Positions 40,959 to 53,624 of a DNA stretch of 64,000 bases are shown here, piece after piece (positions within the stretch are counted from its first letter, which is position 1; each line of letters begins with the position of its first letter). Both the position numbers and the translations under genes were made by a program. The stretch is from an uncultured Clostridia bacterium. GTDB lineage: Bacteria; Bacillota; Clostridia; TANB77; CAG-508. Below the pieces are notes generated by a model. The model searched no databases. It was given only the letters and a program-made list of their open reading frames with translations, and was not told the DNA's origin. The stretch lies in the NCBI GenBank assembly GCA_963556825.1, contig CAUWAM010000005.1, forward strand, positions 2,609 to 66,608, written 5' to 3'.

Positions 40959-41034
40959 CGAGGCGTAGCGCAGTTGGTAGCGCGCGTGGTTTGGGACCAT
41001 GAGGTCGCAGGTTCGATCCCTGTCGCCTCGACCA
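40959..41034 (+). tRNA. tRNA-Pro (TGG); its 3' end is the attachment site of the adjacent mobile element
   Basis: Acceptor CGAGGCG/CGCCTCG, anticodon loop TTTGGGA, TTCGATC T-loop, encoded CCA. Confidence 0.85.
41023..41034 (+). repeat. attL core (tRNA-Pro 3' end)
   Basis: tcgcctcgacca, identical to 53613-53624. Confidence 0.7.
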
Positions 41035-41322: not shown

Positions 41323-41883
41323 ATGAATTTTATACCTTACAAGGCTAATGAATGCCTTGAAAATACTTTTTACCAAATCCCAAAAGAACTATTTATAAAT
41401 CCAGCATATACAAAGTTAAGTTCAGATAGTAAATTACTATATGGCTTATTATTAGATAGATTATCAATTTCAATAAAAAACAACTGGGTTGATAAAGCTG
41501 GAAATATATATTTAATTTTTTCAAGAAAAGAGGCACAAGAAAAATTAAATCTATCAGACAAACCAGTTACAAAAGCTTTTAGACAATTAAACGAAGCAAA
41601 ACTAATACACGAAGTTAGACAAGGCTTTAAGAAAAACAATATCATATATGTTGGTAAATTAAATCATATTGATAATGATAAATTTATGAATCGTAAAATC
41701 TCCGATTCAGGAAACGGAAATAATACGAATCAAGAATCGGAGAATGTACGAAGTAATAAGAATAAATATAATAAAAATAAATCTAATAATATTTCAGACA
41801 CAAAAAAATCTTTTACAAATCACGAACAAAGACAATATGAAAATTTAGATTTTTTATATGCAAATAAAATATTTGAGAATTAG
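41323..41883 (+). CDS. RepA_N-family replication initiator-like protein
   Basis: FYQIPKELFINPAYTKLSSDSKLLYGLLLDRLSISIKNNWVDKAGNIYLIFSRKEAQEKLNLSDKPVTKAFRQLNEAKLI matches the RepA_N consensus. RBS aaaggag. Confidence 0.7.
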   Translation: MNFIPYKANECLENTFYQIPKELFINPAYTKLSSDSKLLYGLLLDRLSISIKNNWVDKAGNIYLIFSRKEAQEKLNLSDKPVTKAFRQLNEAKLIHEVRQGFKKNNIIYVGKLNHIDNDKFMNRKISDSGNGNNTNQESENVRSNKNKYNKNKSNNISDTKKSFTNHEQRQYENLDFLYANKIFEN

Positions 41884-41899
41884 AAAAGGAGAATTAAAA

Positions 41900-42295
41900 A
41901 TGGAACATATAGAATTAAAAGAAAAATTTATAGATGAAAAAACAGGAATTGAATATATAAGAAAAGGAGATTATTATTACCCTAATTTATATATTCCTAA
42001 AGCTCGTAGAAAAGGCAATATTGGAAAATATGGGTTAATGAGATTAAATTATATTAAGAAATATAAAAAAAACTTATACACCGATTTATTATTGAATAAT
42101 GAACTATCAAGTCATTTATTAGATATAGATGATGAATGTAAAAAAAGATTAGATGTTTTAATAAATCAAATAAAGAGGCAAGAAAATGTTACAGAAGAAT
42201 TAAAAGAAACTAATCAAATGGAATGGGTTGGTATGATGAATAATATAAAAAATCGTGCTGAAGAAATTGTATTTAATGAGATAATTTATAACTAA
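41900..42295 (+). CDS. tnpV: TnpV-family protein (as on Tn4451-type clostridial elements)
   Basis: GDYYYPNLYIP...IGKYGLMRLNYIKKYKKNLYTDLLLNNELSSHLLDID...TNQMEWVGMMNNIKNRAEEIV. Start is at the ATG after aaaggag. Confidence 0.7.
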   Translation: MEHIELKEKFIDEKTGIEYIRKGDYYYPNLYIPKARRKGNIGKYGLMRLNYIKKYKKNLYTDLLLNNELSSHLLDIDDECKKRLDVLINQIKRQENVTEELKETNQMEWVGMMNNIKNRAEEIVFNEIIYN

Positions 42296-42341
42296 AAATT
42301 AAAAGAACTGGTACAGAAATTCATATGTTTCTTAATCAATT

Positions 42342-42602
42342 CTATTTTAAATTATCAAAATATTCATCTGTTAAATCATTAACAGAAAGGCCAAAACATT
42401 TAGCGAAACCGCATAATTCATAATCAACAACAGTTCTTTTACCAACTTCAATATTATAAATAGCTTGTTTATGAATATCTATCCCAAGCAACATTAATTG
42501 GTCCGATAATTTTTGATATGACATCTTATTTTTTTCTCGATAATATTTAATTTTTGGGCCAACAACATTTAAGTTTCCATTAATTTTTCTTGAATTATTC
42601 AT
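42342..42602 (-). CDS. XRE-family helix-turn-helix regulator
   Basis: 86 aa. IKYYREKNKMSYQKLSDQLMLLGIDIHKQAIYNIEVGKR is a typical HTH_3 sequence. Confidence 0.75.
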   Translation of the reverse strand: MNNSRKINGNLNVVGPKIKYYREKNKMSYQKLSDQLMLLGIDIHKQAIYNIEVGKRTVVDYELCGFAKCFGLSVNDLTDEYFDNLK

Positions 42603-42722
42603 ATCTGCTCCTTGTAAAAATATGTATTTCTATTGATTTTATAATAAAAATTTGCTAATATATAAATACACGCATTTATAATGTGCAAAATAATAAAAAT
42701 TATTATTTATAAGGAGCAATGA

Positions 42723-42941
42723 ATGAAAAATAATGAAATGGTAGACAATTATAATTTAATAAATAAACTAATTAAAGATAACAAAATTAAGTTTGAATAT
42801 TATAATAATAAACAAGTTTCACTTGATTTAATTCAAATTTATCATAACCAAAACGATGATGCAATAGAACTAAAATTTAGAAATATTATGCAAGAATATC
42901 TTGATGAAATAAAAGAAATTACAAATAAAAATGAAAAATAA
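42723..42941 (+). CDS. hypothetical small protein
   Basis: 72-aa ORF with RBS aaggag, divergent from the XRE gene. No family recognised. Confidence 0.4.
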   Translation: MKNNEMVDNYNLINKLIKDNKIKFEYYNNKQVSLDLIQIYHNQNDDAIELKFRNIMQEYLDEIKEITNKNEK

Positions 42942-43039
42942 AATATACAAAAAGTTATACTTTTTCAGTATGTTTTGCACAAGTTTTTAGCAAAATGTGT
43001 ATAAGTATAGTTAGGAATTTGTGTGTTAGGATTTTTAAA

Positions 43040-43125
43040 GCAAGCGTCGCATTTTAACTCCCGTTAAAACACTGCTTGTCAATTTTAGATTAAAATTGAA
43101 AGATGGGGAATTCTTCCCCAAACCC
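43040..43125 (+). promoter_or_regulatory. candidate oriT (nested inverted repeats upstream of mobC-relaxase)
   Basis: Imperfect hairpin caagc..ttttaac-tccc-gttaaaa..gcttg (43042-43078) and hairpin ggggaa-ttc-ttcccc (43105-43119) in a non-coding stretch just 5' of mobC. Confidence 0.35.
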
Positions 43126-43203
43126 CTTAATAAAATATAAAATTTTTGAAACAGTCGTACAAAAAGTAAGGCTGTTTTTTTTCGTGAAAGGAGAATTTAA
43201 TTT

Positions 43204-43527
43204 ATGAGAAAAAGAAATATAAAAAAACAAATATGGATTGATACAAAAGAAGACGAATTATTAAAAAGAAAATCAAAAGAAGCAGGACTATCTGAAGCAG
43301 AGTTTATTAGAAGTTTAATTAAAGGTTATAGAATAAAAGCACAACCAACTGAAATAATAAAAGAATTTCAAAAACAATTATATGGAATTGCAAATAATAT
43401 AAATCAAATTGCTAGAATTTCAAATTCAAAATTTAGTACCTCACATGATGATTACGAAATTATCAATGAAATGTTAAGCAACTTTATTTTAGATTTTGAA
43501 AAGAAAGTTTATTCAAGAAAAAAGTAG
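43204..43527 (+). CDS. mobC: MobC-family relaxosome accessory protein (RHH)
   Basis: KEAGLSEAEFIRSLIKG...GIANNINQIARISN motif, immediately upstream of the relaxase. Confidence 0.75.
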   Translation: MRKRNIKKQIWIDTKEDELLKRKSKEAGLSEAEFIRSLIKGYRIKAQPTEIIKEFQKQLYGIANNINQIARISNSKFSTSHDDYEIINEMLSNFILDFEKKVYSRKK

Positions 43528-43537
43528 GAGGTGTTCC

Positions 43538-44818
43538 ATGGCTGTTACAAAATATAAAGTAATAAAGAAAAATTTAGAGGCAGTTATAAATTATGCAATG
43601 AACGGAGAAAAAACTGAAAATGGAATTTTAGTATCAGAATTAAATTGTTTACCTAAAACTGCATATAGTCAAATGATGCTTACTAAAAAGAACTTTCATA
43701 AAGAAGATGGAAGATTAGGTTATCACATTATACAATCATTTAATGGTAACGAGGTATCGCCAGAAAAGGCAAATCAAATTGGGATAGAACTTGCTCAAAG
43801 TTTATGGGGCGATAAATATCAAGTTGTGGTATGTACACATACTAATAAAGATAATGTTCATAACCACATTGTATTAAATTCAGTTTCATTTATAGATGGC
43901 TCAAAATATCACAATTCAAATGTAGATATAGCTTTAATAAAAGAAACTAATGATGAATTATGTATGAAGTATGGCTTGTCAGTTTTAGATACCTACAAAG
44001 CAAATAAAGAAAAACAAATTGCACGAAGTAGAATAGCAAACTACAACAGAAATTCAGGTAAAATGGAGCTTATAAAAAATGATATTGATGAGGCAATTAG
44101 CAAATCAAGAAAATATCAGGACTTTATAAATATTTTAAATAGTCAAGGCTATTATATAAAAAAAGGTGGATCATCTATATCAACGCCTTATTATAATAGA
44201 AATATAAGATTAGCAAGAGCTTTTGGAGATGAATATTCTGTTGAAAATATTAAAGCTAGAATATATAATTATGCAATTAAACCATCTGAAGAAAATAAAT
44301 ATAAAGTTAGAATTTATGATGGAGTGAAAATTGATAGTGAATTACTAAAAACATCACACTTTTATAGACTATATGTTCATTATTTATATGTGTTTGGAAA
44401 GTTGCCTGCTAAAATTCATTACGAAGAAAGAAGTGCAGAATATTATAAGGCTATCGAGAAAATGGATAAAATAAGTGAAGAAATTAGGTTTATTGGAAAA
44501 TATGATATTCAAAGTAAAAGTGATGTTGAAAAAATTAAAAGTGAACTTATAGAAAATGTTTCGAAACTAAAAGAAAATAAAGAAAAGCTATTAAAAGATT
44601 ATATTAAAGCTGATGATATTGATAAAGAAAATATACAAACTAAAATTGAAAATATTACTGTTAAAATAACTAAAATAACAGAAGATATTAAGATTTGTAA
44701 AAGAATTATTTATAATGCTGAAAGAGGAGAAAAAGAACAAAAACAGATAGAGCAAAGGAAAAATGAGAATTTACAAAATAGTAAAAAAGATGTGAAAAAA
44801 AAAGAATATATTAGGTGA
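43538..44818 (+). CDS. MobA/VirD2-type relaxase (mobilisation nuclease)
   Basis: His-triad motif HTNKDNVHNHIVLN, with LGYHIIQSF upstream. The ATG is preceded by aggagg. The C-terminus is a long coiled coil. Confidence 0.8.
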   Translation: MAVTKYKVIKKNLEAVINYAMNGEKTENGILVSELNCLPKTAYSQMMLTKKNFHKEDGRLGYHIIQSFNGNEVSPEKANQIGIELAQSLWGDKYQVVVCTHTNKDNVHNHIVLNSVSFIDGSKYHNSNVDIALIKETNDELCMKYGLSVLDTYKANKEKQIARSRIANYNRNSGKMELIKNDIDEAISKSRKYQDFINILNSQGYYIKKGGSSISTPYYNRNIRLARAFGDEYSVENIKARIYNYAIKPSEENKYKVRIYDGVKIDSELLKTSHFYRLYVHYLYVFGKLPAKIHYEERSAEYYKAIEKMDKISEEIRFIGKYDIQSKSDVEKIKSELIENVSKLKENKEKLLKDYIKADDIDKENIQTKIENITVKITKITEDIKICKRIIYNAERGEKEQKQIEQRKNENLQNSKKDVKKKEYIR

Positions 44819-44857: not shown

Positions 44858-45340
44858 TTATTTTATTATTTTATGCTCTAAATTATAATCACCATTCATT
44901 AATTTCTCTTTAAGAAATTCAGGTCTAAAATCAAAATTGTTTAAAGATTCTATATCAAGCCATTCAAAATTATGAACTTTGATTTCTCCTTCATCATTTT
45001 CTACTTTTTCATAATTTTGTAATGAAATTTTATCAAAATTTTCAGGACTAACTATATAGTAAAAGCTCAATTCATGAGTTTGAAGCCCTTTCTTATCCAT
45101 ATAAAAATTTTCTACAATAGCTATTTCTTTATCGATAGAAACAGGTGTATCTATTTCTTCTAACATTTCTCTTAAAATAGCTGTTTGAGTGTCTTCTCCT
45201 AATTCAACATGTCCACCAGGTAGACAATAAGATACATTATTCTTCATTTTAATAGTTAAAATCTTATTGTTATAAATTACGATACCATTAACTCTATATT
45301 TAAACTTTTGTGTTTCATTTTTGAATTCAATATCTTTCAT
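44858..45340 (-). CDS. Nudix hydrolase (cargo)
   Basis: Nudix box GGHVELGEDTQTAILREMLEEID. Confidence 0.8.
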   Translation of the reverse strand: MKDIEFKNETQKFKYRVNGIVIYNNKILTIKMKNNVSYCLPGGHVELGEDTQTAILREMLEEIDTPVSIDKEIAIVENFYMDKKGLQTHELSFYYIVSPENFDKISLQNYEKVENDEGEIKVHNFEWLDIESLNNFDFRPEFLKEKLMNGDYNLEHKIIK

Positions 45341-45452
45341 TTACATTCCTCCCTATAAAATTTGGTATATTTTATCAAATTTTCAATTAAAAGTCAAAAA
45401 AATTTGTTTAACCCAATTAGTGTGTGATAAAATAACTATGGAGGTAAAAGGT

Positions 45453-45986
45453 ATGAATATAAATAATAAAATAACATGTATAACTATGTTTGACAAACAC
45501 AGTTTAGATAAAATTAATGCATATATAAACGATATTGATTTTAAATTATGCAAACTTAAATATGATGAAGAAAACAGAGAGGATAAAGATTTATTGCCAT
45601 TTCATTCAACAATATGTGTATGGAAAAATAAAAATTCTACAGAAATAAAAAAATTAATAGAATCAATTGATTTTTGTGAATTTAAAATGCAAATTATAGG
45701 AACACAAATAAAAGAATCTACTCAAGGTAGTTATAACCTATATTTTGAAATACAAAAGAGTGAAGAATTAAATAAAATACAAGAATTAATATATCAAAAT
45801 GAAAATTATAGAGTAGAAAAATATAAACCAAATGTATTTATTCCGCATATAACAATTCATATAGATAAGGATTTAAAAAAAATAATAAAATTACAAGAAA
45901 AAATAATGAAAGATTTTAAACCATTTGAAGTTAAAGTATGTAAAATTGGACTATATAAAATATATCCACCAAAAGAACTGGTATAA
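45453..45986 (+). CDS. 2H phosphoesterase superfamily protein (LigT/cyclic phosphodiesterase-like)
   Basis: 177 aa with two HxT/S motifs (FHSTI and PHITI) about 95 residues apart. Start is at the ATG after ggaggt. Confidence 0.6.
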   Translation: MNINNKITCITMFDKHSLDKINAYINDIDFKLCKLKYDEENREDKDLLPFHSTICVWKNKNSTEIKKLIESIDFCEFKMQIIGTQIKESTQGSYNLYFEIQKSEELNKIQELIYQNENYRVEKYKPNVFIPHITIHIDKDLKKIIKLQEKIMKDFKPFEVKVCKIGLYKIYPPKELV

Positions 45987-46091
45987 ATTGACAAAATAAG
46001 AAAAAAATGTTAAAATCTTATGTAAACAGTCACTGTTATAGAATGTTTTAATTAAAAGAATCTATTTAGCAAAACAGAAAGGAGGATACAA

Positions 46092-47873
46092 ATGGAAAAA
46101 TATCTAATTGTTTTAGATTTGGATGACACACTATTACATTCTGATAAAAGTATATCAGAGTATTCCAAATTTATTTTGAGAAAATGTCAAGACTTGGGGT
46201 GCAAAGTGGTAATTAATACAGCTAGAAGCCATATAAGAACTATTAATTTTGCAGAACAGGTGAATGCTGATTTTATTTGTTCGTTTAACGGAAACTTTGT
46301 TTGTGACAGATATGATAATATAATATATTATAATCCTATTTCAAATGAAGTATCTAAAAATGTAATAGAGGAATTAAGCAAACATACAAAAAACATAATT
46401 AATGAAGGCTTATATGGCTCTTTTTGTACTGACAAAAGCGATATTGATTTTGTAGATTCAAAATTCGCATCTATAAACTTTGTGAAAAATCTACAAAGTT
46501 GTAAGTTGATATTAAGATGTCAAGAAGAAAATTATGCGTCTATAAAGAGTATAATAGAAAAGTACAATTTATCTATAACCTTTTCAAGAGAGAAAAATAC
46601 AGCCAGGATTCTACCTTCTGGAACAGACAAATGGATTGGAATAGAACATATAAAAGAGTACTTAAAAAACGATTATAAAGTAATTGCATTTGGGGATGAT
46701 ATCACTGATTTGGAAACGTTAAAAAATGCAGATGTAGGCGTCAGAATGAAAAATTCTATTTCAGAAATCATTGAAAATGTAAGTTTTTCTACATCTTCTA
46801 ATGATAATGATGGTGTAGCTGAATTTTTATGTCATTATTTTAATTTGGAACAAGAAAATATTGATTACAGTAATGTAAAAATATTAGATTGTTCATTAAG
46901 AGATGGCGGACACTTAAATAAATCCAATTTTGGATATGATACAATAAAGGGATTTATTGAAAAATTAGCTATGTCTAATACAGATATAATTGAGATAGGT
47001 TTTTTGCAGGACAGTGAATTTGATAAAAATATAGCAATCTATCCAACAGTTGCAAAAGCAGAAGAGATACTTAAAGATATTGATTGCAAGAATTCAATAA
47101 TTTCGCTGTTAACACAAGTAGACAAGTTCGATATTTCTAAGCTTGAAAAATGCTGTGGAAAGGTTAAGATGATAAGAGTATCTTTTCATAGCAATTTGAT
47201 TGATTTAGGAATGCAATATTGTGAAGAAGTAAAGAAAAAAGGATATTTATGTTCAGTAAATCCTATAAATTTTTCACACTATAACAAAGAAGAAGTAGTA
47301 AGTTTAATTTCCAAAGTTAATAAAATCAATCCAGATGTTTTTTCAATTGTTGATACCTTTGGTGTGTTGTTAAACAATGACTTTAGAAATAAGTTAAATC
47401 TTATTAATCATCTTCTTAATAAATCAATAAAAAGGGGGATTCATCTTCATGAAAACGTCAATTTAGCCTTTTCATCTGCACAAACATTAATTCAAACAAA
47501 TGCAATTGATGAAGAAGTTATCATTGACACTTCTGTATCAGGTATAGGTAGAGCTCCAGGTAATTTAAAGACAGAATTTATGGAGTACTACATAAACCAG
47601 TTGATGAGAAAAGAAAGATATTCAATGGATTCAATCTACTCATTGATGGAAAATGAAATACCAATTTTGAAAAATGAACTTGATTGGAATAATTATTTTG
47701 CATATGGAATTACAGCATTTGAAAAAACACATAGAACATATGCAGAATATCTGATGAACAAGGGACTTTCTTTATTAGAAATTGAAAAATTGATTAAACA
47801 GATTCCATATAAAAATAGAGGGAGATTTGATGAAAAGGTAATCGAAACAATTTATCAAGCCAGCAAAAAATAA
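46092..47873 (+). CDS. fusion protein: Cof-type HAD-IIB phosphatase (N) + DRE-TIM/HMGL-like aldolase-type domain (C)
   Basis: HAD motifs LIVLDLDDTLL, NTARS, FGDDITDLETL. The C-terminal half starts at ILDCSLRDGGH...IIEIGF, typical of the pyruvate carboxyltransferase / 4-hydroxy-2-oxoacid aldolase fold. Confidence 0.65.
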   Translation: MEKYLIVLDLDDTLLHSDKSISEYSKFILRKCQDLGCKVVINTARSHIRTINFAEQVNADFICSFNGNFVCDRYDNIIYYNPISNEVSKNVIEELSKHTKNIINEGLYGSFCTDKSDIDFVDSKFASINFVKNLQSCKLILRCQEENYASIKSIIEKYNLSITFSREKNTARILPSGTDKWIGIEHIKEYLKNDYKVIAFGDDITDLETLKNADVGVRMKNSISEIIENVSFSTSSNDNDGVAEFLCHYFNLEQENIDYSNVKILDCSLRDGGHLNKSNFGYDTIKGFIEKLAMSNTDIIEIGFLQDSEFDKNIAIYPTVAKAEEILKDIDCKNSIISLLTQVDKFDISKLEKCCGKVKMIRVSFHSNLIDLGMQYCEEVKKKGYLCSVNPINFSHYNKEEVVSLISKVNKINPDVFSIVDTFGVLLNNDFRNKLNLINHLLNKSIKRGIHLHENVNLAFSSAQTLIQTNAIDEEVIIDTSVSGIGRAPGNLKTEFMEYYINQLMRKERYSMDSIYSLMENEIPILKNELDWNNYFAYGITAFEKTHRTYAEYLMNKGLSLLEIEKLIKQIPYKNRGRFDEKVIETIYQASKK

Positions 47874-47885
47874 AGGAGGATTACT

Positions 47886-48890
47886 ATGTGGTTAGAAAAG
47901 TATGTAAAAGAGGTTGGGATTGAAACAGATTATCCAAAATTTAATGGAGAAGAATGTATCTACATCGACCTTAAAACAACGGATTTATTTTTGGCACAGT
48001 ATTTTAATGGTGAATTCAATGCCTTAGATATTGTAGTTAAATATTTAGCAATTGAAAATTACTACAATAAGAACGACTTCGGCTTTGAATTATATCGGAA
48101 AATGCAGTTAAAGCGAGTTGGTGAAGATTGGAATGAAAGATTTGTGAATTTGATAAGATCGTTTGAAAAGGGAATCGATATGGATTCTTGGATTAAGACG
48201 GATTTATCTTATTCCATTCACGATGGAGCACACAGAGTTGCATTAGCACTTTATCACGATTATGAAGATATACCTGTAAGAGTCTTCAATGTAAATATTC
48301 AAAGAAGATATTATGGTATTGATTGGTTTAGAGAAAATGACTTTTCTGAATCAGAAATAGCAATTATTAAAGGAAAATTGGAAGAATTGCTTTCCAAATG
48401 CAGAAAGCCATATTATTGTATTTTATGGACACCAGCAAGATATCAGTTTAACAATATTATAAACTGTCTCGAAAAAGTTGAAGAAGGAGTTCATATCATT
48501 AATATGGAAAAAGTTAGTCTTACAAATGAAGATTTAAAAAAATTCATATATGATATATATGAAACAGATGATATTATGAAATACAAATTGGATCTCAAAT
48601 ATCAGCATATGATGCTCTCTCTTGAGGCTGACAATTATAGTGAACAGTTATTTGAAATTTGCGTAATTGAACTTAAATTTGATAATCCTGACTTTAGACT
48701 TAAACCGTTAAGTGGACTTCCACAGTCAAAAGCAACAATGAGGGTCAAGAAGAAAATCAGAGATTTGTTCAAAGATAAAATAACAGATTATTATTATGAC
48801 ATCATTATGCACTTAACAGACAATCAGATACAAAATGATGATGTCAAAAAAATAATAAAAGTTGCAAAAAACAACACAAAAACATTTTAA
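47886..48890 (+). CDS. hypothetical protein with ParB/Srx-like motif
   Basis: 334 aa. SIHDGAHRVALALYH resembles the DGxHR signature of the ParB/sulfiredoxin fold. RBS aaggagg. Confidence 0.4.
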   Translation: MWLEKYVKEVGIETDYPKFNGEECIYIDLKTTDLFLAQYFNGEFNALDIVVKYLAIENYYNKNDFGFELYRKMQLKRVGEDWNERFVNLIRSFEKGIDMDSWIKTDLSYSIHDGAHRVALALYHDYEDIPVRVFNVNIQRRYYGIDWFRENDFSESEIAIIKGKLEELLSKCRKPYYCILWTPARYQFNNIINCLEKVEEGVHIINMEKVSLTNEDLKKFIYDIYETDDIMKYKLDLKYQHMMLSLEADNYSEQLFEICVIELKFDNPDFRLKPLSGLPQSKATMRVKKKIRDLFKDKITDYYYDIIMHLTDNQIQNDDVKKIIKVAKNNTKTF

Positions 48891-48903
48891 GGAGGGCAAC
48901 ACT

Positions 48904-49641
48904 ATGAAAGAAAAAATAATTGGATTAATTCCTGCAAGAATGGGAAGTTCAAGATTTCCTGGTAAGCCAATTGCTAATATTTGTGGAAAACCAATGGTGT
49001 ATTGGGTATATAAGCAGGCAGAAAAAGTCAAAGAACTTGATGAAATCTATGTTGTAACAGAGGATGATATTATTGCTGAAAAATGTGCTGAATTTGGAGT
49101 TCCTTATTGGATTGAAAAAGAAGAGACAACAACAGCAGCTGAAAAATTATCCTATACAGCAAGAAAAATGGATGGAGATATCTACTTGAATATTCAGGGA
49201 GATGAACCATTAATTAAACCTGAAGCAATCAAACAGGTTATTGATGCAATGAAGGCGAACAAAGATGTAGACTACGTAGGACTTCGTTCAAAGATTGATA
49301 CGGAGGAAGAGTTTAGAAATCGGAATGTTGTAAAAGTTGTTGTTGATGCAAACGGATTTGCAATGTATTTTTCGCGTAGTCCAATTCCGTACACATATGA
49401 TTCTAATAATACTTTTAGAGTTTTAGGATTGTATGGATACAGAGCAGATTTCTTAAAGAAATTTGCGGATTTTAAGAGAAGTAAATTAGAAAGTCTTGAG
49501 TGTGGCGTAGAAATGTTAAGGGTGATGGAAAATGGATATAGAATTCAGTTAATTGAAACTGAATATACAACCATTGGGGTTGATTTACCGGAACATATTG
49601 CCATTATTGAAGAAAAATTGAAAAATTCGGTTCAATATTAA
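48904..49641 (+). CDS. KdsB/NeuA-type cytidylyltransferase (CMP-ulosonic acid synthetase family)
   Basis: GLIPARMGSSRFPGKPIANICGKPMVYWV, NIQGDEPLI, YFSRSPIPY. The ATG is preceded by aaggaggg. Confidence 0.8.
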   Translation: MKEKIIGLIPARMGSSRFPGKPIANICGKPMVYWVYKQAEKVKELDEIYVVTEDDIIAEKCAEFGVPYWIEKEETTTAAEKLSYTARKMDGDIYLNIQGDEPLIKPEAIKQVIDAMKANKDVDYVGLRSKIDTEEEFRNRNVVKVVVDANGFAMYFSRSPIPYTYDSNNTFRVLGLYGYRADFLKKFADFKRSKLESLECGVEMLRVMENGYRIQLIETEYTTIGVDLPEHIAIIEEKLKNSVQY

Positions 49642-49662
49642 GATTTAACTTATTAAAAAGTG

Positions 49663-49694
49663 ACAGACTACTCAAAATTGAGTAGTCTGTTTTC
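49663..49694. terminator. bidirectional terminator inside the element
   Basis: 11-bp perfect stem acagactactc/gagtagtctgt, then tttc. Confidence 0.6.
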
Positions 49695-49744
49695 AACGTA
49701 TAAAAGTATTTTGAAGTTATTGATTTATATTTGCAATAAATGCA

Positions 49745-50170
49745 TTAAAATAGGTATTGAACTGTTTGTTCAGGATACAAGACAAATTGGTTACTCTTAA
49801 ATTTTTCAATATCTATCCATATTGCTTCTAATTCCGAATTATCATCGATGACATTGTATTGTTCTTTATAGTCTTTGGAATCGATATAAGCTTCGTAGAA
49901 GAATACTAATTCATGTGCATCTTTTCCTTTATAATGAAAGATATTTTCTGAGATTCCTAAATATTTTCCAATTTTAATTGATACATTAATTTCTTCTTTG
50001 AACTCTCTTTTTAGAGCGTCTTCACTTGTTTCTAAAAATTCTATTCCTCCACCTAAACATCTAAAAAATTCTTGATTTTTTTGTTTATCATAAAATCGAC
50101 TAACTAATAATTTTCCATCATTTTTAACTAATCCTAATACAATAGGTCTAATTTCCTTGAATTTGTCCAT
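49745..50170 (-). CDS. Nudix hydrolase (second cargo copy, not a close paralog of the first)
   Basis: Nudix box GGGIEFLETSEDALKREFKEEINV. The start is chosen at MDKFKEIRP. Confidence 0.75.
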   Translation of the reverse strand: MDKFKEIRPIVLGLVKNDGKLLVSRFYDKQKNQEFFRCLGGGIEFLETSEDALKREFKEEINVSIKIGKYLGISENIFHYKGKDAHELVFFYEAYIDSKDYKEQYNVIDDNSELEAIWIDIEKFKSNQFVLYPEQTVQYLF

Positions 50171-50383
50171 AAAAATACAATTTCCTTCCATAATATAATT
50201 TTCTAATAATCATAATTTAATATTAATAAGCATTTACTAATTTATTTATTATTAAATACTATTTAACTTTTCCAATGTCATTTGTTCTTCAGTGCCATCA
50301 TCATTTAAAAGCATAATATCTTTTAAATTACCACCTAATCTAGTATGCTCATTTCCACCATCACTATATACTTATGGTTTCAA

Positions 50384-51334
50384 TTACTTTAATTTTAAAT
50401 TCTTTGTAATATCATCTGATAAGTCTTTACTAGGAATTTTAACAAATATACCTTTTTCAGTTTGTATAACATTTTTTGAAATAGATTTACTTCTACTTTT
50501 ATAAACATTAGCTTTATTCTTACATTGAGGTGTATCATATTCAGCCTTTGGATTATTTGCAATAAAAGCCTTATTACAGAAATTACAAACTTTAAGTAGT
50601 CTAACATCCTGTGCCATTTGCATTGAATATGCAATATCAACAGCTTGTTTTAAATAATTAATTGTAATTCCAAAACTACTATTTAAATATAATTCTCTTA
50701 TATTAGATGTTATGTGATTTGCATTTAAGAAAGGCAAGTCCATTGTTACATTTTTATTTTCTAATGTTGAACTTAAAGTTTTATATAATGACCTAGCATA
50801 ATTTAAAACTAATTCAACAGACTCTGCATAATTTACATTATATATTAGGTATTCATTTATTATTGATGTTAAATAACTTTCTTTTTTAGTATCACTAGCA
50901 ACATCTTTACATTTTTTAATTATAGCATTTATTTCTTTCTTATTTAATTTAGGTAAGAAGAATTTTAAATATTCATCTACATTCATAAAATCAACATTCT
51001 CTTTATTATTTATATAGAACGGATCTCTTATTGTAACTTTATCTTCAAATATAAAATATCTACTAATTGCTAAATCTATCATAAATCCAAAAGAACCATA
51101 TTTAGAATAGAAGTTAAGCAACTCAAAATCTTCAAGAGGTTCTTTATAAAAAACTTTCTTACCAATATTTAAAACTTCAATTAGTAATTCATCAATATTT
51201 TCTGTTATGCTAATAGTTCTTTTTGTAGCATTTTCTTCAGGTAGAATATATCTCTTTCCTTTAAATTTTTCTATTTTATATTTGCTAAATGCATAACAAA
51301 AAGAAGATGATTCAATTCTAAAATTTACTTTCAT
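50384..51334 (-). CDS. hypothetical protein with C-terminal Cys4 zinc-ribbon-like tail
   Basis: CNFCNKAF...YDTPQCKNKANVYKSR at the C-terminus. The start is at ATG 51334 after gggag. No family recognised. Confidence 0.5.
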   Translation of the reverse strand: MKVNFRIESSSFCYAFSKYKIEKFKGKRYILPEENATKRTISITENIDELLIEVLNIGKKVFYKEPLEDFELLNFYSKYGSFGFMIDLAISRYFIFEDKVTIRDPFYINNKENVDFMNVDEYLKFFLPKLNKKEINAIIKKCKDVASDTKKESYLTSIINEYLIYNVNYAESVELVLNYARSLYKTLSSTLENKNVTMDLPFLNANHITSNIRELYLNSSFGITINYLKQAVDIAYSMQMAQDVRLLKVCNFCNKAFIANNPKAEYDTPQCKNKANVYKSRSKSISKNVIQTEKGIFVKIPSKDLSDDITKNLKLK

Positions 51335-51459: not shown

Positions 51460-51720
51460 ATCCACTGTCAAGAGAATTGACTAAAATTCTTGGAAAGCAC
51501 ATTGAAAATTGAATACCCAATAGCTAAATACATTATAATGATACACTTACACAGCCACAGCTCGAGCGTGATAAAACCGTCGCAAGCAATGGGTGTAACT
51601 TGGCTAGATAGCGAAGTGGTGAGAGTCCAGTGAAGTATAAAATACTTGTTTAGAATTGCCCAGAATAGAGGGACAGGAAAAATATCATTCAAAAATACAA
51701 CAAAAGGAGGAATAATAAAT

Positions 51721-51933
51721 ATGGGAGTTAATACACAACAAAACTTAATGAATATTTTAACTACAAAAGATGTAATGAAAATCTTAAAAATAGGAAATAA
51801 AGCCTGTTTAGAGCTATTTCACAAAAAGGACTTTCCTTGTATGAAAATAGGCAGAGCCTTTGGAATTACAGAAGAAAATTTTGTAGAATATTTTAAAACA
51901 AGAAGAGTTGAAGATGATGAAAGAGGAAATTAA
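51721..51933 (+). CDS. xis: excisionase-type helix-turn-helix protein (Xis)
   Basis: 70 aa. LTTKDVMKILKIGNKACLELFHKKDFPCMKIGRAF is HTH_17-like. RBS aaaggagg. It lies directly upstream of the integrase. Confidence 0.65.
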   Translation: MGVNTQQNLMNILTTKDVMKILKIGNKACLELFHKKDFPCMKIGRAFGITEENFVEYFKTRRVEDDERGN

Positions 51934-52101
51934 AAAAGAAGATTTAAATATGCGACATTTAAATCTTCAAATACACTTATGTATTATTAAACTGAAAGAA
52001 AAACTATTGCTATTAGTTTCCTTAACTGATATAATTATACCATAAAATTCAGATTTAGCAATAGTTTTTCTTTAAATTCAAATAGAAAAGGAGAAATCAA
52101 T

Positions 52102-53469
52102 ATGATAGAATTTAAAGGAATAACTGTTGGAACTTATATCTCAAGAAAGCCGAAAAAGGGACAACCAAAAGATATTTGTTCTAATTGCGAAAGTATAAAA
52201 AAATTACAGAAGAAAAAAGTAGACAAAGAAAAAGAATATGACATATGCAAAATTTGCGAAAAATGTTATGTTTCAAAATCATCAAAGGCACTTTTAATGG
52301 TTGGACGAGATCAAACAACAGGTAAAATAAACAGAAAGACATTTGTTGCAGATACTGAAGAAATAGCATTACACAAGGCACTAGAATATAAACTGGAGCT
52401 AGACAAAAATGGCGGACCGAGAATTATTACTAAAAGCAACAAAACATTAGTAAAACTTGTAAAACCTGTTTTAGAAGAACAGTATAAGTTAAAAGATATT
52501 AAAGCTTCAACTTTTAAAAGAAAAACTGATACATTGAAAAAAATAGGAGAAGAAAAATTTGCAAATAAGCCTATTGCGAAAGTTACGAGAAAAGAAGTTG
52601 TAGATTATCTATCAACATTAGTACCATATTCAACATCAACAATTAAGCAAATTTATGAACTAATTTGTATAGGGTATGGGGAAGCACAAAACCAAAAAAT
52701 CATAGAAGAAAATTTTATGACTGGATACAGGAGAATTTCCAAACCAAAAAGCGAATACAACTCTGACAAAAGAAAAGCATTAACCATTCAAGAAGAAAAG
52801 ATACTTGTTGATTACCTTAATTCAGTAGATTATAGCAAATGTAGAAATAAATACTTATTTTTACTAATGCTAACAACTGGAATAAGAATAGGCGAAGCAC
52901 TTGTTATTGACTACGAAAAAGATATTGACCTAAAAAATAATGAATTAACAATACGAAGAACACAAACAAAAGATGAAGATGGAAAAATGATTATTGGAGA
53001 AACAACAAAAACCGATAATAGCCTTAGAACAATAAAAATGAATAACATTAGTAGGTCAATAATAGAGCAAGCCTTAAAATACAAAATAACGAACAAAGAA
53101 AAGCTTTTATTCTGTCAAGCAAATGGAAAAATGCACGAAGAAACATCAATAAATAGTTGTTTAAAAAGAATTGCAATAAAATTAGATATTGGAACTTTTG
53201 AAGATACAAATAACAAAGGAAAACTTGTAACAAAGACTGATGTTCATAATCATATGTTAAGAGGAACTTTTGCAACAAGATGTGCAGAGGCTAAAATTGC
53301 TCCAGTAGTATTACAACAAATACTTGGTCATAAAGATATTACTATAACAATGGAATATTATATTGACGTAGATACTGAATTTATTGAATCTGAAACAGAT
53401 AATGCAATTCAATATCTAATTGATAAAAATATCTTTGGAGTTGTATTACCAGAAGAAAAAGTAGCTTAA
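52102..53469 (+). CDS. int: tyrosine-type site-specific integrase
   Basis: Catalytic-region motifs TGIRIGEAL, HNHMLRGTFATR, LGHKDITITMEYY. There is an N-terminal Cys-rich (CxxC...CxxC) extension. Confidence 0.85.
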   Translation: MIEFKGITVGTYISRKPKKGQPKDICSNCESIKKLQKKKVDKEKEYDICKICEKCYVSKSSKALLMVGRDQTTGKINRKTFVADTEEIALHKALEYKLELDKNGGPRIITKSNKTLVKLVKPVLEEQYKLKDIKASTFKRKTDTLKKIGEEKFANKPIAKVTRKEVVDYLSTLVPYSTSTIKQIYELICIGYGEAQNQKIIEENFMTGYRRISKPKSEYNSDKRKALTIQEEKILVDYLNSVDYSKCRNKYLFLLMLTTGIRIGEALVIDYEKDIDLKNNELTIRRTQTKDEDGKMIIGETTKTDNSLRTIKMNNISRSIIEQALKYKITNKEKLLFCQANGKMHEETSINSCLKRIAIKLDIGTFEDTNNKGKLVTKTDVHNHMLRGTFATRCAEAKIAPVVLQQILGHKDITITMEYYIDVDTEFIESETDNAIQYLIDKNIFGVVLPEEKVA

Positions 53470-53612: not shown

Positions 53613-53624
53613 TCGCCTCGACCA
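53613..53624 (+). repeat. attR core (displaced copy of the tRNA-Pro 3' end)
   Basis: tcgcctcgacca, preceded by ccc as in the tRNA T-arm. It lies 144 nt downstream of the integrase stop. Confidence 0.7.

What the first reader, a model, noticed from the sequence alone, without database searches (positions are those of the whole stretch)
44858..51334. IME cargo: synthase-like + phosphatase + cytidylyltransferase set bracketed by two Nudix hydrolases and a 2H phosphoesterase, with no glycosyltransferase
The plus-strand block has three genes: a HAD-IIB phosphatase fused to a DRE-TIM aldolase-type domain (46092-47873), a ParB/Srx-like protein (47886-48890), and a KdsB/NeuA-type cytidylyltransferase (48904-49641). 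It is tightly packed, with 12-13-nt gaps and strong RBSs. Its logic mirrors the three-step routes to CMP-Kdo/CMP-Kdn/CMP-sialic acids (condensation, dephosphorylation, CMP activation). However, it uses a non-orthologous aldolase fold fused to the phosphatase. No transferase, flippase or polymerase that would use a CMP-sugar is on the element. Instead the block is flanked by nucleotide-directed hydrolases: Nudix 44858-45340, 2H phosphoesterase 45453-45986 and Nudix 49745-50170. There is also an unknown 316-aa zinc-ribbon protein. 2H phosphoesterases on mobile elements include enzymes that destroy cyclic-nucleotide immune signals (for example Acb1). So the cargo could be a nucleotide- or nucleotide-sugar-based conflict or modification module rather than capsule biosynthesis. 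This is speculative.
Basis: inference. Interest (0 to 1): 0.6.

Follow-up and report, generated by a model that had tools for sequence, protein, structure and literature searches.

The report
Mobile aldolase-based CMP-sugar-acid operon
A small mobile element in an uncultured gut bacterium carries a self-contained, undescribed enzyme set that most likely makes a CMP-activated Kdo-like sugar acid from pyruvate, yet no enzyme to attach that sugar was found on the element or in the genome, so its use is unknown.

Summary
In detail: all seven genes, their domains, the 12-13-nt gaps and the ribosome-binding sites are as described.

**Conserved module.** Across 12 independent contexts the unit is a HAD-IIB phosphatase fused to a DmpG-type pyruvate aldolase, a 334-aa ParB/Srx plus NDK-fold protein, a KdsB-like cytidylyltransferase and a Nudix hydrolase. 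The Nudix is adjacent in 11 of 11 evaluable loci and fused to the cytidylyltransferase in four of them.

**Other genes.**
- The 2H phosphoesterase belongs to a tiny family that lay beside the cassette in every context I looked at.
- The 316-aa protein is element backbone, not cargo.

**Support for a pathway.**
- Distant relatives of the aldolase-cytidylyltransferase pair sit in polysaccharide loci. There, other HAD types fill the phosphatase slot, and in one locus a PfkB sugar kinase stands beside the pair with no ParB/NDK homologue seen in the stretch fetched.
- The host lacks KdsA, NeuB and KdsD.

**Best reading.** A non-orthologous route of precursor release, phosphorylation, aldol condensation, dephosphorylation and CMP activation.

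**Open puzzle.**
- No transferase was found on the element or, among the known families searched, in the 96%-complete genome.
- Close relatives lack the cassette.
- Sister elements carry AbiE, Gabija or Thoeris-like defence genes in the same slot.

A conflict role is therefore not excluded.

The parts
40959..41034 (+). tRNA-Pro(TGG), the integration site. The left att core TCGCCTCGACCA is at 41023-41034.
   Evidence: ARAGORN; sequence read; the same 12-mer recurs at 53613-53624.
41323..44818 (+). Element backbone, left part: RepA_N (41323-41883), TnpV (41858-42295), HTH (42342-42602, minus strand), MobC/NikA (43204-43527), MobA/VirD2-type relaxase (43538-44818).
   Evidence: Pfam. The same gene order occurs in sister elements L029, L032 and L038.
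44858..45340 (-). NudixA, a type-A Nudix hydrolase with an intact Nudix box. It is a conserved partner of the cassette.
   Evidence: Pfam NUDIX 1.2e-12. Orthologues at 36-79% identity lie next to the cassette in L001, L010, L011, L017 and L021. Best solved structure is 2PQV, of unknown function.
45453..45986 (+). 2H (LigT-like) phosphoesterase with both HxT/S motifs. It is an accessory gene specific to the mobile-element clade of the cassette.
   Evidence: Pfam and NCBIfam. The family has only 15 clusters. It lay beside the cassette in every context examined: window, L007, L017/18 and L038-40.
45988..46016 (+). Promoter-like site (TTGACA, 17 nt, TG-extended TAAAAT) for the three-gene core operon.
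   Evidence: Best match in the region, 11 of 12; sequence read. This is a consensus match only.
46092..47873 (+). Fusion of a Cof-type HAD-IIB phosphatase (residues 1-250) with a DmpG/3DXI-type DRE-TIM pyruvate aldolase (residues 260-593).
   Evidence: Pfam. Best solved structures are 3DXI (3e-19) and DmpG 1NVM (7e-11). LRDGGH and HLH(E/D/N)N are kept in all 11 fusion proteins examined. The HAD motifs DxD(x)T and GDDxxD were found in 9 of the 11; the pattern search did not match them in two proteins each.
47886..48890 (+). Two-domain protein of unknown family: an N-terminal ParB/Srx-like domain (DGAHR at 113-117) and a C-terminal NDK-like domain (invariant R292, H309, D312). It is a putative phosphotransferase.
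   Evidence: AF2 model with pLDDT 94. Foldseek top 50 are all NDKs, probability about 1. The N-domain hits are nearly all ParB/Srx but weak. MAFFT aligns H309 with the NDK catalytic His. No Pfam family for any of 36 members.
48904..49641 (+). KdsB-like CMP-ulosonate synthetase (cytidylyltransferase).
   Evidence: PF02348 1.7e-45; TIGR00466 kdsB 169.4 bits, above the 155.2 cut-off. E 8e-42 to the Aquifex KdsB structure 2Y6P. CTP-loop R/K and both Mg-binding Asp residues are kept.
49663..49690 (.). Hairpin with a 12-bp stem between the convergent cytidylyltransferase and NudixB genes; a likely two-way terminator.
   Evidence: Scan; sequence read (T run after the stem on the plus strand).
49745..50170 (-). 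NudixB, a second Nudix with an intact box and 33% identity to NudixA. It was seen only in this element type (window and L007).
   Evidence: Pfam; blastp comparison; tblastn across loci.
50384..51334 (-). 316-aa protein with a C-terminal Cys cluster. It is a backbone gene of the element family, divergent from xis-int, and not cargo.
   Evidence: 372 homologous clusters, none with a Pfam family. In L023-25, L029-30 and L032 it keeps the same position next to xis-int while the cargo differs.
51646..53469 (+). Excisionase-like HTH_17 protein (ORF 51646-51933) and tyrosine integrase (52102-53469).
   Evidence: Pfam.
53613..53624 (+). Right att core TCGCCTCGACCA, a repeat of the tRNA-Pro 3' end.
   Evidence: Sequence read.

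Best explanation
The cargo is a self-contained, horizontally mobile cytoplasmic pathway that makes a CMP-activated 3-deoxy-2-ulosonic acid. The product would be Kdo-like, probably not Kdo itself. Every canonical enzyme except the last is replaced by a non-orthologous one.

**Proposed order of steps.**
1. A Nudix hydrolase frees an aldose or aldose phosphate from a common nucleoside-diphosphate sugar such as an NDP-hexose or ADP-ribose. This step is inferred.
2. The ParB/Srx plus NDK-fold protein transfers phosphate through His309. Most likely it primes the aldose. Alternatively it recycles CMP and CDP to CTP. This step is inferred.
3. The DmpG-type metal aldolase condenses pyruvate, not PEP, with the aldose phosphate.
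4. The fused HAD-IIB phosphatase removes the phosphate at once, which pulls the reversible aldol reaction forward.
5. The KdsB-like enzyme joins CMP to the C2 hydroxyl.

Steps 3 to 5 rest on domain identity, conserved catalytic residues, the gene fusion and conserved gene neighbourhood.

**Other genes.** The 2H phosphoesterase and the second Nudix are accessories found only in the mobile-element versions.

**What is not known.** The acceptor and the transferase are unknown, and so is the biological role. Candidates are a surface decoration or a conflict function.
For: **The core always travels together.**
- The core trio is present in all 12 non-redundant loci with a close homologue of the 334-aa protein.
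- A Nudix is adjacent in 11 of 11 evaluable loci. It is fused to the cytidylyltransferase in L004, L012, L013 and L014 (three non-redundant contexts) and is a tandem double Nudix in L021.
- No other neighbour recurs.

**The enzymes look active.**
- Aldolase: LRDGGH plus HxH, matching the DmpG catalytic Arg, Asp and His and the two metal-binding His.
- HAD: DxD and GDxxxD.
- Cytidylyltransferase: passes the kdsB equivalog cut-off and keeps R, K and both Mg-binding Asp residues described for Aquifex KdsB.

**The middle protein looks like a phosphotransferase.**
- The NDK fold is supported by Foldseek (probability about 1, E 3e-3).
- Its invariant His aligns with the NDK phospho-histidine.

**Other enzymes fill the same slots elsewhere.**
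- L019: HMGL-like (39% identical), CTP_transf_3, a short HAD and a long ParB/NDK homologue, inside a polysaccharide locus with a Maf-like transferase, Wzx and Epimerase_2.
- L048: aldolase, KdsB-like enzyme and a PfkB sugar kinase next to Wzx. tblastn found no ParB/NDK homologue in the 11.5 kb fetched.
- L049: aldolase, KdsB-like enzyme and a HAD_2 phosphatase.

**The wider ParB/NDK family is tied to glycans.**
- It is fused to a Maf transferase, methyltransferases and PglD_N.
- It lies in a flagellin glycosylation island.
- It resembles giant-virus glycosyltransferase proteins.

**The host cannot make the substrate otherwise.** It has no KdsA/DAHP-synthase family, no NeuB family and no KdsD above cut-off.
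Against: - No glycosyltransferase, flippase or membrane protein is in any of the 8 Pfam-annotated cassette contexts.
- The host genome is 96% complete and has no Maf/MptE-like, WaaA-type or KpsC/S-type transferase. The GT52 test was uninformative because no control genome matched. A CMP-sugar without a user is odd.
- A Nudix cannot cleave a CMP-sugar phosphodiester, so its role is a guess.
- The NDK and ParB/Srx assignments rest on fold only. hhalign probability was 1.4%, Pfam found nothing and the N-domain Foldseek E-values were 0.06-3.
- The aldose substrate is unknown.
- Nothing here is biochemical evidence.
Confidence: 0.5

Rival explanations
1. The cassette is a conflict module, either anti-phage defence or counter-defence. 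On this reading its output is not a glycan building block. It could be a soluble cytidine-linked compound, or a controlled drain or rerouting of nucleotides: CTP consumed by the cytidylyltransferase, and NDP-X or cyclic or ADP-ribose-derived signals cut by the Nudix and 2H enzymes. This concerns the biological role and could hold even if the CMP-sugar-acid chemistry is correct.
For: - Three of three sampled sister elements share the Int-Xis-316aa...relaxase backbone and carry defence genes in the same slot. These are AbiEii plus Gabija-like genes (AAA_15/OLD-TOPRIM and UvrD), ThsB_TIR-like plus ThsA_Macro, and AbiEii plus a 902-aa protein.
- The cassette is sporadic. In the class sample it is absent from 3 same-genus, 5 same-family and 7 same-order genomes, and only 2 of the other 398 scored genomes had even a distant homologue.
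- It rides on at least five kinds of mobile context.
- It is wholly cytoplasmic and no known transferase was found in the host.
- The extra nucleotide hydrolases, 2H and NudixB, occur only in mobile-element versions.
- Both Nudix proteins give partial hits to the PADLOC candidate PDC-S07.
Against: - The three core proteins match no PADLOC model.
- There is no sensor, nuclease, protease or membrane effector.
- Chromosomal copies (L001-4, L033) are not in defence islands.
- Distant relatives of every core component sit in ordinary glycan loci.
- The PDC-S07 hits cover only the generic Nudix core.
- Cargo hotspots also carry non-defence genes.
Confidence: 0.2
2. The product is a CDP-activated phospho-compound, for example a phosphorylated hydroxy acid. 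The kinase-like protein phosphorylates the aldol product. The cytidylyltransferase makes CDP-X. The Nudix edits or recycles CDP-X. The HAD acts on a precursor or by-product.
For: - A Nudix fused to the cytidylyltransferase would have a natural substrate, because CDP-X contains a diphosphate.
- A kinase-like protein is always present.
- Earlier scan notes describe CDP-type readings for related aldolase fusions (unchecked).
Against: - The cytidylyltransferase scores as KdsB at equivalog level, with the KdsB catalytic residues.
- KdsB/NeuA-type enzymes act on the anomeric hydroxyl of 2-keto acids, not on phosphates (established knowledge of the family).
- The phosphatase is fused to the aldolase. 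That argues for immediate dephosphorylation of the aldol product.
Confidence: 0.12
3. The genes are unrelated housekeeping or sanitising enzymes that merely sit together on the element. There is no common pathway.
For: Nudix, HAD and 2H families are often generic house-cleaning enzymes. No product is known.
Against: - Gene fusions join HAD to the aldolase, and the cytidylyltransferase to the Nudix.
- Order and spacing are kept at 45-99% identity over 12 contexts in different bacterial classes.
- Translational coupling signals are present.
- No other neighbour recurs.
Confidence: 0.03

Closest known systems
CMP-Kdo pathway (KdsD, KdsA, KdsC, KdsB) of Gram-negative bacteria
   Same: The last enzyme is a true KdsB-family member. 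It passes the equivalog cut-off and keeps the catalytic residues. The logic is the same: condensation to a phosphorylated 3-deoxy-2-ulosonate, dephosphorylation, then CMP activation.
   Different: - There is no KdsA-type PEP-dependent synthase. A DmpG-type, metal-dependent pyruvate aldolase stands in its place.
- The phosphatase is a Cof-type HAD-IIB fused to the aldolase, not a KdsC-type HAD-IIIA.
- There is no KdsD, so arabinose 5-phosphate is unlikely to be the acceptor.
- There is no Kdo transferase.
- The host is a monoderm Firmicute.
- A Nudix and a ParB/NDK-fold protein are added.
Animal-type sialic acid route (GNE hydrolysing epimerase/kinase, NANS, NANP, CMAS) and the Bacteroides Kdn-9-P route
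   Same: The five-step logic is the same: release a free sugar from a nucleotide sugar, phosphorylate it, condense, dephosphorylate with a HAD enzyme, then CMP-activate.
   Different: Every enzyme is of a different fold or family: Nudix in place of an epimerase-type hydrolase, ParB/NDK in place of a ROK kinase, and a pyruvate aldolase in place of a NeuB-type synthase. The assignment of the first two steps is inferred, not shown.
DmpG/BphI 4-hydroxy-2-oxovalerate aldolases, and the structural-genomics protein 3DXI from Bacteroides vulgatus
   Same: Same DRE-TIM fold, the RDGxH and HxH catalytic and metal motifs, and the expected pyruvate enolate chemistry.
   Different: It scores far below the DmpG equivalog cut-off (63 against 286 bits). 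It has no partner aldehyde dehydrogenase, is fused to a phosphatase, and sits in a biosynthetic rather than a catabolic context.
Aldolase plus KdsB-like modules in polysaccharide and flagellin-glycosylation loci of gut bacteria
   Same: Homologous aldolase (26-39% identity) and cytidylyltransferase, with phosphatase and kinase-type partners.
   Different: Those loci include glycosyltransferases, a Wzx flippase and sugar-tailoring enzymes. The cassette here stands alone, always has a Nudix, and moves on integrative elements.
Defence cargo of integrative mobilizable elements (AbiE, Gabija, Thoeris)
   Same: Same element backbone and the same cargo slot as in sister elements. Distribution is sporadic and horizontally spread.
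   Different: No homology to any known defence protein except generic Nudix similarity. There is no recognisable sensor or effector.

Membership tests
KdsB / CMP-ulosonate synthetase (CTP_transf_3) | Profile score above the curated cut-offs | tested here: met
   PF02348 155.9 bits (cut-off 22.6); NF003952 246.8 (193); TIGR00466 kdsB equivalog 169.4 (155.2). E 8e-42 to Aquifex KdsB 2Y6P.
KdsB / CMP-ulosonate synthetase (CTP_transf_3) | CTP-loop Arg and Lys, and the two Mg-binding Asp residues (R10, K19, D95, D219 in Aquifex KdsB) | tested here: met
   The alignment gives R12, K21, QGDEP and GVD. The residue roles come from PMC3149649. QGDEP and GVD are kept in all 12 cassette enzymes examined.
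KdsB / CMP-ulosonate synthetase (CTP_transf_3) | The substrate is Kdo | not testable with these tools
   The genome lacks KdsA and KdsD, so Kdo proper is unlikely. The EQLR motif of KdsB reads EMLR here; what that means for specificity is unknown.
Canonical CMP-Kdo / CMP-nonulosonate pathway | PEP-dependent synthase of the KdsA (PF00793) or NeuB (PF03102) family | tested here: not met
   Neither family is in the 96%-complete genome; the control genomes matched.
Canonical CMP-Kdo / CMP-nonulosonate pathway | A transferase that uses the CMP-sugar (WaaA, KpsC/S, Maf, sialyltransferases) | tested here: not met
   PF04413, PF05159 and PF01973 are absent from the genome. The PF07922 test was uninformative because no control matched. 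No glycosyltransferase is in any annotated cassette context.
DmpG-type class II pyruvate aldolase (DRE-TIM metallolyase) | Metal ligands (Asp, HxH) and catalytic Arg and His (RDGxH) | tested here: met
   LRDGGH at 269 and HLHEN at 451 align with DmpG R17, D18, H21 and H200, H202. They are kept in 11 of 11 homologues. The residue roles are from my knowledge of the 1NVM literature.
DmpG-type class II pyruvate aldolase (DRE-TIM metallolyase) | Orthology to DmpG (equivalog score; partner acylating aldehyde dehydrogenase) | tested here: not met
   TIGR03217 63 bits against a 286 cut-off. No dehydrogenase gene is beside it in any locus.
Nucleoside diphosphate kinase | Sequence-profile membership (PF00334) | tested here: not met
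   No Pfam hit for any of 36 family members even at E up to 10. hhalign probability 1.4%.
Nucleoside diphosphate kinase | NDK fold with the catalytic His in place | tested here: met
   The top 50 Foldseek PDB hits are all NDKs (E 3e-3 to 2e-2, probability about 1, TM 0.5-0.6 on the target). MAFFT aligns invariant H309, R292 and D312 with NDK His, Arg and Asp of NxxHGSD and GTIRGD. The lysine of the KPD motif is not kept.
ParB/sulfiredoxin superfamily | Fold and the DGxHR-type motif | tested here: inconclusive
   DGAHR (D113, G114, H116, R117) is invariant or nearly so. Foldseek hits of the N-domain model are almost all ParB, Noc, KorB, PadC, Srx or Osa, but E is 0.06-3 and TM is low. No Pfam hit.
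Known anti-phage defence systems (PADLOC-DB v2) | Match of the core proteins to a defence model | tested here: not met
   No hit for the fusion protein, the 334-aa protein or the cytidylyltransferase. The Nudix proteins hit candidate PDC-S07 only over the Nudix core. The 2H protein has a weak hit (3.7e-4) to PDC-S53.
Acb1-like viral 2H phosphodiesterases | Two HxT/S motifs, and sequence relationship to phage families | tested here: inconclusive
   The motifs are present (HSTI, HITI). There is no PHROG family hit and no solved-structure hit. Activity on cyclic oligonucleotides is not testable here.
Integrative mobilizable element | Integrase, excisionase, relaxase with accessory protein, and att repeats at a tRNA gene | tested here: met
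   Pfam. A 12-bp direct repeat lies at the tRNA-Pro 3' end and at 53613-53624. There are no T4SS genes on the element.

The most novel reading that the evidence does not exclude
The operon is a new kind of mobile conflict system. It would be a soluble, transferase-free pathway whose cytidine-linked sugar acid, or the nucleotide flux it creates together with its Nudix and 2H partners, protects the host or the element against phages or against host immunity. It occupies the same cargo slot that sister elements fill with AbiE, Gabija and Thoeris-like genes.
Probability: 0.15. Interest if true: 0.85.

Novelty: new variant of a known kind. Interest (0 to 1): 0.62.

Why it matters
**A third route to these sugars.** All textbook routes to Kdo, sialic, pseudaminic and legionaminic acids use a PEP-dependent KdsA- or NeuB-type synthase. 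If the reading is right, gut Firmicutes instead use a pyruvate aldolase driven by a phosphorylation and dephosphorylation cycle. I found no paper describing this.

**A large unnamed family gets a hypothesis.** The reading would give a first functional hypothesis to the ParB/Srx plus NDK-fold family, which has about 1,650 clusters at 50% identity.

**An unusual mobile form.** The version here is stripped of any transferase. It spreads on integrative elements among uncultured gut bacteria and sits in a slot that otherwise holds defence systems. Either an unknown acceptor system exists, or CMP-sugar chemistry has been put to a non-glycan use.

**Practical value.** The enzymes could be useful for making CMP-activated keto-sugar acids without PEP.

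Tried and rejected
**Searches that found nothing.**
- Pfam, NCBIfam, PADLOC and PHROGs on the 334-aa and 316-aa proteins.
- PDB sequence search with the family profile gave only noise.
- hhalign of the family against a genuine NDK gave 1.4% probability, so it is no statistical support, although the aligned stretch was in register.
- tblastn of the 334-aa protein against the plasmid and phage collections gave no match.
- Five literature searches found no paper on an aldolase-based ulosonate route or on the ParB/NDK family. I also read the SugarBase preprint, which is not relevant.
- I looked in two KdsB papers for the Kdo-binding residues. Only the catalytic residues were given, so sugar specificity could not be judged.
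- The repeat finder with seed 12 missed the att repeat. I found it by reading the two ends.

**Tools and limits.**
- The GT52 search was uninformative because no control genome matched.

**Ideas considered and set aside.**
- The 316-aa protein as the missing transferase. It is an element backbone gene present with quite different cargos.
- A phosphonate or MeOPN-type pathway. There is no PEP mutase. The PPDK_N/PEP-utilizer gene is a neighbour only in L004, and I did not check its near-duplicate L012.
- The NDK-like domain as a simple replacement for a missing host Ndk. The whole genus lacks Ndk, so this does not discriminate.

Full report
**1. Observation.**
The window is AT-rich (about 25% G+C). 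It lies in a 1.34-Mb, 96%-complete genome of an uncultured gut Clostridia bacterium.

The finding sits inside an integrative mobilizable element inserted in tRNA-Pro:
- The att core TCGCCTCGACCA is at 41023-41034 and again at 53613-53624.
- The backbone is RepA_N, TnpV, HTH, MobC/NikA, relaxase, then the cargo, then a 316-aa protein, Xis and a tyrosine integrase.

The three plus-strand core genes are separated by 12 and 13 nt, each with an AAGGAGG-type ribosome-binding site. The best promoter-like site of the region precedes them, and a hairpin followed by a T run comes after them. None of the cargo proteins has a membrane-like segment.

**2. What travels together.**
The 334-aa protein has about 107 close homologous clusters, all from gut metagenomes or MAGs and none with a Pfam family. 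I examined 12 non-redundant contexts with these results:
- The HAD::aldolase fusion, the 334-aa protein and the cytidylyltransferase are always together.
- A Nudix gene is adjacent in all 11 loci where the flank is available.
- The Nudix is fused to the C-terminus of the cytidylyltransferase in L004, L012, L013 and L014, which are three non-redundant contexts.
- Two Nudix subfamilies take this place: type A, which includes the window's NudixA, and a second type. L021 has both, fused in tandem.
- No other neighbour recurs.

The 2H protein belongs to a family of only 15 clusters. It lay beside the cassette in every context I looked at, on two kinds of mobilizable element and one conjugative-type context. 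NudixB is confined to this element type.

**3. The 316-aa protein is backbone.**
It has more than 370 homologous clusters. In sister elements it keeps its place next to Xis-Int while the cargo differs:
- AbiEii plus a Gabija-like pair plus a HopA1-like protein in L023-25.
- A ThsB_TIR-like plus ThsA_Macro pair in L029-30.
- AbiEii plus a 902-aa protein in L032.

In a second element type, DUF6076 holds the equivalent position.

**4. The enzymes.**
- **Aldolase domain.** Its closest solved structures are the structural-genomics protein 3DXI and then DmpG. It keeps RDGxH and HxH, as do all 11 homologues examined.
- **HAD domain.** It is Cof-type IIB with its catalytic motifs.
- **Cytidylyltransferase.** It passes the kdsB equivalog cut-off. 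It has E 8e-42 to Aquifex KdsB and keeps the CTP-loop Arg and Lys and both Mg-binding Asp residues.
- **Nudix and 2H.** Both Nudix boxes and both 2H HxT/S motifs are intact. Both Nudix proteins are closest to 2PQV, of unknown function.

**5. The 334-aa protein.**
- An AF2 model with pLDDT 94 gives only nucleoside diphosphate kinases as its top 50 PDB neighbours. These cover the C-terminal half.
- A separate model of residues 1-172 (pLDDT 92) gives weak hits that are almost all ParB/Srx members.
- An alignment with two genuine NDKs places invariant H309, R292 and D312 on the NDK catalytic His, Arg and Asp. hhalign gives no statistical support.
- The wider family is large: 1,653 clusters at 50% identity with E up to 1e-3. 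Most members are 450-650 aa.
- Members are fused to a Maf-type transferase, methyltransferases or PglD_N.
- Members lie in a Roseburia flagellin glycosylation island and in a polysaccharide locus.
- The family resembles giant-virus multidomain glycosyltransferase proteins.

I read it as a phosphotransferase tied to glycan pathways.

**6. Why a pathway, and in what order.**
In more distant lineages the aldolase and a KdsB-like enzyme stay adjacent while other families fill the partner slots:
- L019 has a short HAD, a long ParB/NDK homologue, Epimerase_2, a Maf-like gene and Wzx.
- L048 has a PfkB sugar kinase and Wzx beside the pair. tblastn found no ParB/NDK homologue in the 11.5 kb fetched.
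- L049 has a HAD_2 phosphatase.

So a phosphatase accompanies the aldolase-cytidylyltransferase pair in three lineages, and a kinase-type partner in at least two. That fits the order: phosphorylate, condense with pyruvate, dephosphorylate, CMP-activate.

The host has no KdsA/DAHP-synthase family, no NeuB family and no KdsD above cut-off. The cassette must therefore make its own substrate, and that substrate is probably not Kdo proper.

The Nudix role is inferred by analogy. I propose it releases the aldose or aldose phosphate from a nucleotide sugar or ADP-ribose. That would match the hydrolysing step of sialic-acid-type routes and the Epimerase_2 slot in L019.

An alternative role for the 334-aa protein is CMP and CDP to CTP recycling. 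That would also explain its fusions to CMP-releasing Maf transferases, and the host genus lacks a canonical Ndk.

**7. The puzzle.**
- No glycosyltransferase, flippase or membrane protein accompanies the cassette in any of 8 Pfam-annotated contexts.
- The host genome lacks Maf-like, WaaA-type and KpsC/S-type transferases.
- In the class sample (399 genomes scored) the cassette is absent from 3 same-genus, 5 same-family and 7 same-order genomes. Only two genomes elsewhere in the class had even a distant homologue.
- At least 5 of the 12 contexts carry mobile-element hallmarks. These are two tyrosine-integrase elements, two contexts next to T4SS coupling proteins and one next to large serine recombinases.

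A CMP-sugar pathway that moves alone between hosts, with no known user, is unusual. Either an unrecognised transferase exists, possibly the 334-aa protein or a host enzyme, or the product serves a non-glycan purpose.

The defence cargo in the same slot of sister elements makes a conflict role worth testing. Against it, the core proteins match no PADLOC model, and the chromosomal copies are not in defence islands.

**8. Comparison and novelty.**
The closest known system is the CMP-Kdo pathway. Only the last enzyme is shared; the synthase and the phosphatase are non-orthologous and the transferase is missing. The five-step logic resembles the animal sialic-acid route more than the bacterial one.

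I found no paper describing this route. Earlier unchecked notes of this scan reach the same chemical reading for related loci. I re-derived the main points here independently.

I class it as a new variant of a known kind. My confidence is about 0.5 for the stated mechanism, about 0.2 for a conflict role and about 0.12 for a CDP-type product.

**9. Limits.**
- Everything here is computational.
- All carriers are uncultured, so tests need heterologous expression.

Noticed in passing
L023-L025, L029-L030, L032 (sister elements): Elements with the same Int(455 aa)-Xis-316aa...relaxase-MobC-TnpV-RepA_N backbone carry AbiEii, a Gabija-like pair (AAA_15/OLD-TOPRIM plus UvrD), a HopA1-like 650-aa protein, or a ThsB_TIR-like plus ThsA_Macro pair in the cargo slot. 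This is a family of small defence-carrying mobilizable elements in gut Firmicutes.
   Followed up: partly
window 50384-51334 (-): The 316-aa backbone protein has more than 370 homologous clusters, no Pfam family and a C-terminal CxxC...C cluster. It always lies divergent from xis-int. DUF6076 holds the equivalent position in a second element type (L038). It may be an element regulator.
   Followed up: partly
whole genome G000 and 12 same-genus genomes: No canonical nucleoside diphosphate kinase (PF00334) in the host or in any of 12 other genomes of its genus. Only one other genus of the order has it.
   Followed up: no
whole genome G000: No DAHP-synthase/KdsA family gene at all, so the shikimate pathway entry enzyme of that family is missing. 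This fits a reduced 1.34-Mb genome.
   Followed up: no
L021:6048-7010 (-): A 320-aa tandem double Nudix joins the two cassette-associated Nudix subfamilies in one protein. This suggests the two types do different jobs in the same system.
   Followed up: partly
L004:6349-8067: A 572-aa PPDK_N plus PEP-utilizers protein lies directly upstream of the cassette. It has an ATP-grasp and a swivel-His phosphotransferase domain but no TIM-barrel domain, so it is another phospho-histidine enzyme. I saw it only in L004 and did not check the near-duplicate locus L012.
   Followed up: no
L033:3502-13733: Here the cassette, together with a UvrD-family helicase gene, lies between two paralogous HisKA_7TM histidine kinase genes. 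A Ham1p-like (ITPase) gene follows the second kinase. This looks like an insertion into a duplicated sensor locus.
   Followed up: no
L027 (G167:C7:215962-219813): A 902-aa open frame fuses a long ParB/NDK-family domain to an MptE/Maf-like domain. This is a second, independent fusion of these two domains besides P0298.
   Followed up: no
BFVD hits A0A481Z0W0, A0A1V0SAX2, A0A5K0UAL1, A0A3G5A8I7: Giant-virus (Mimiviridae-like) multidomain proteins annotated as glycosyltransferases are the best viral structural neighbours of the 334-aa protein (E 4e-6 to 3e-4). The family therefore reaches into giant-virus glycan machinery.
   Followed up: no
window 49663-49690: A perfect 12-bp-stem hairpin lies between the convergent cytidylyltransferase and NudixB genes. 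It probably terminates transcription from both directions.
   Followed up: partly
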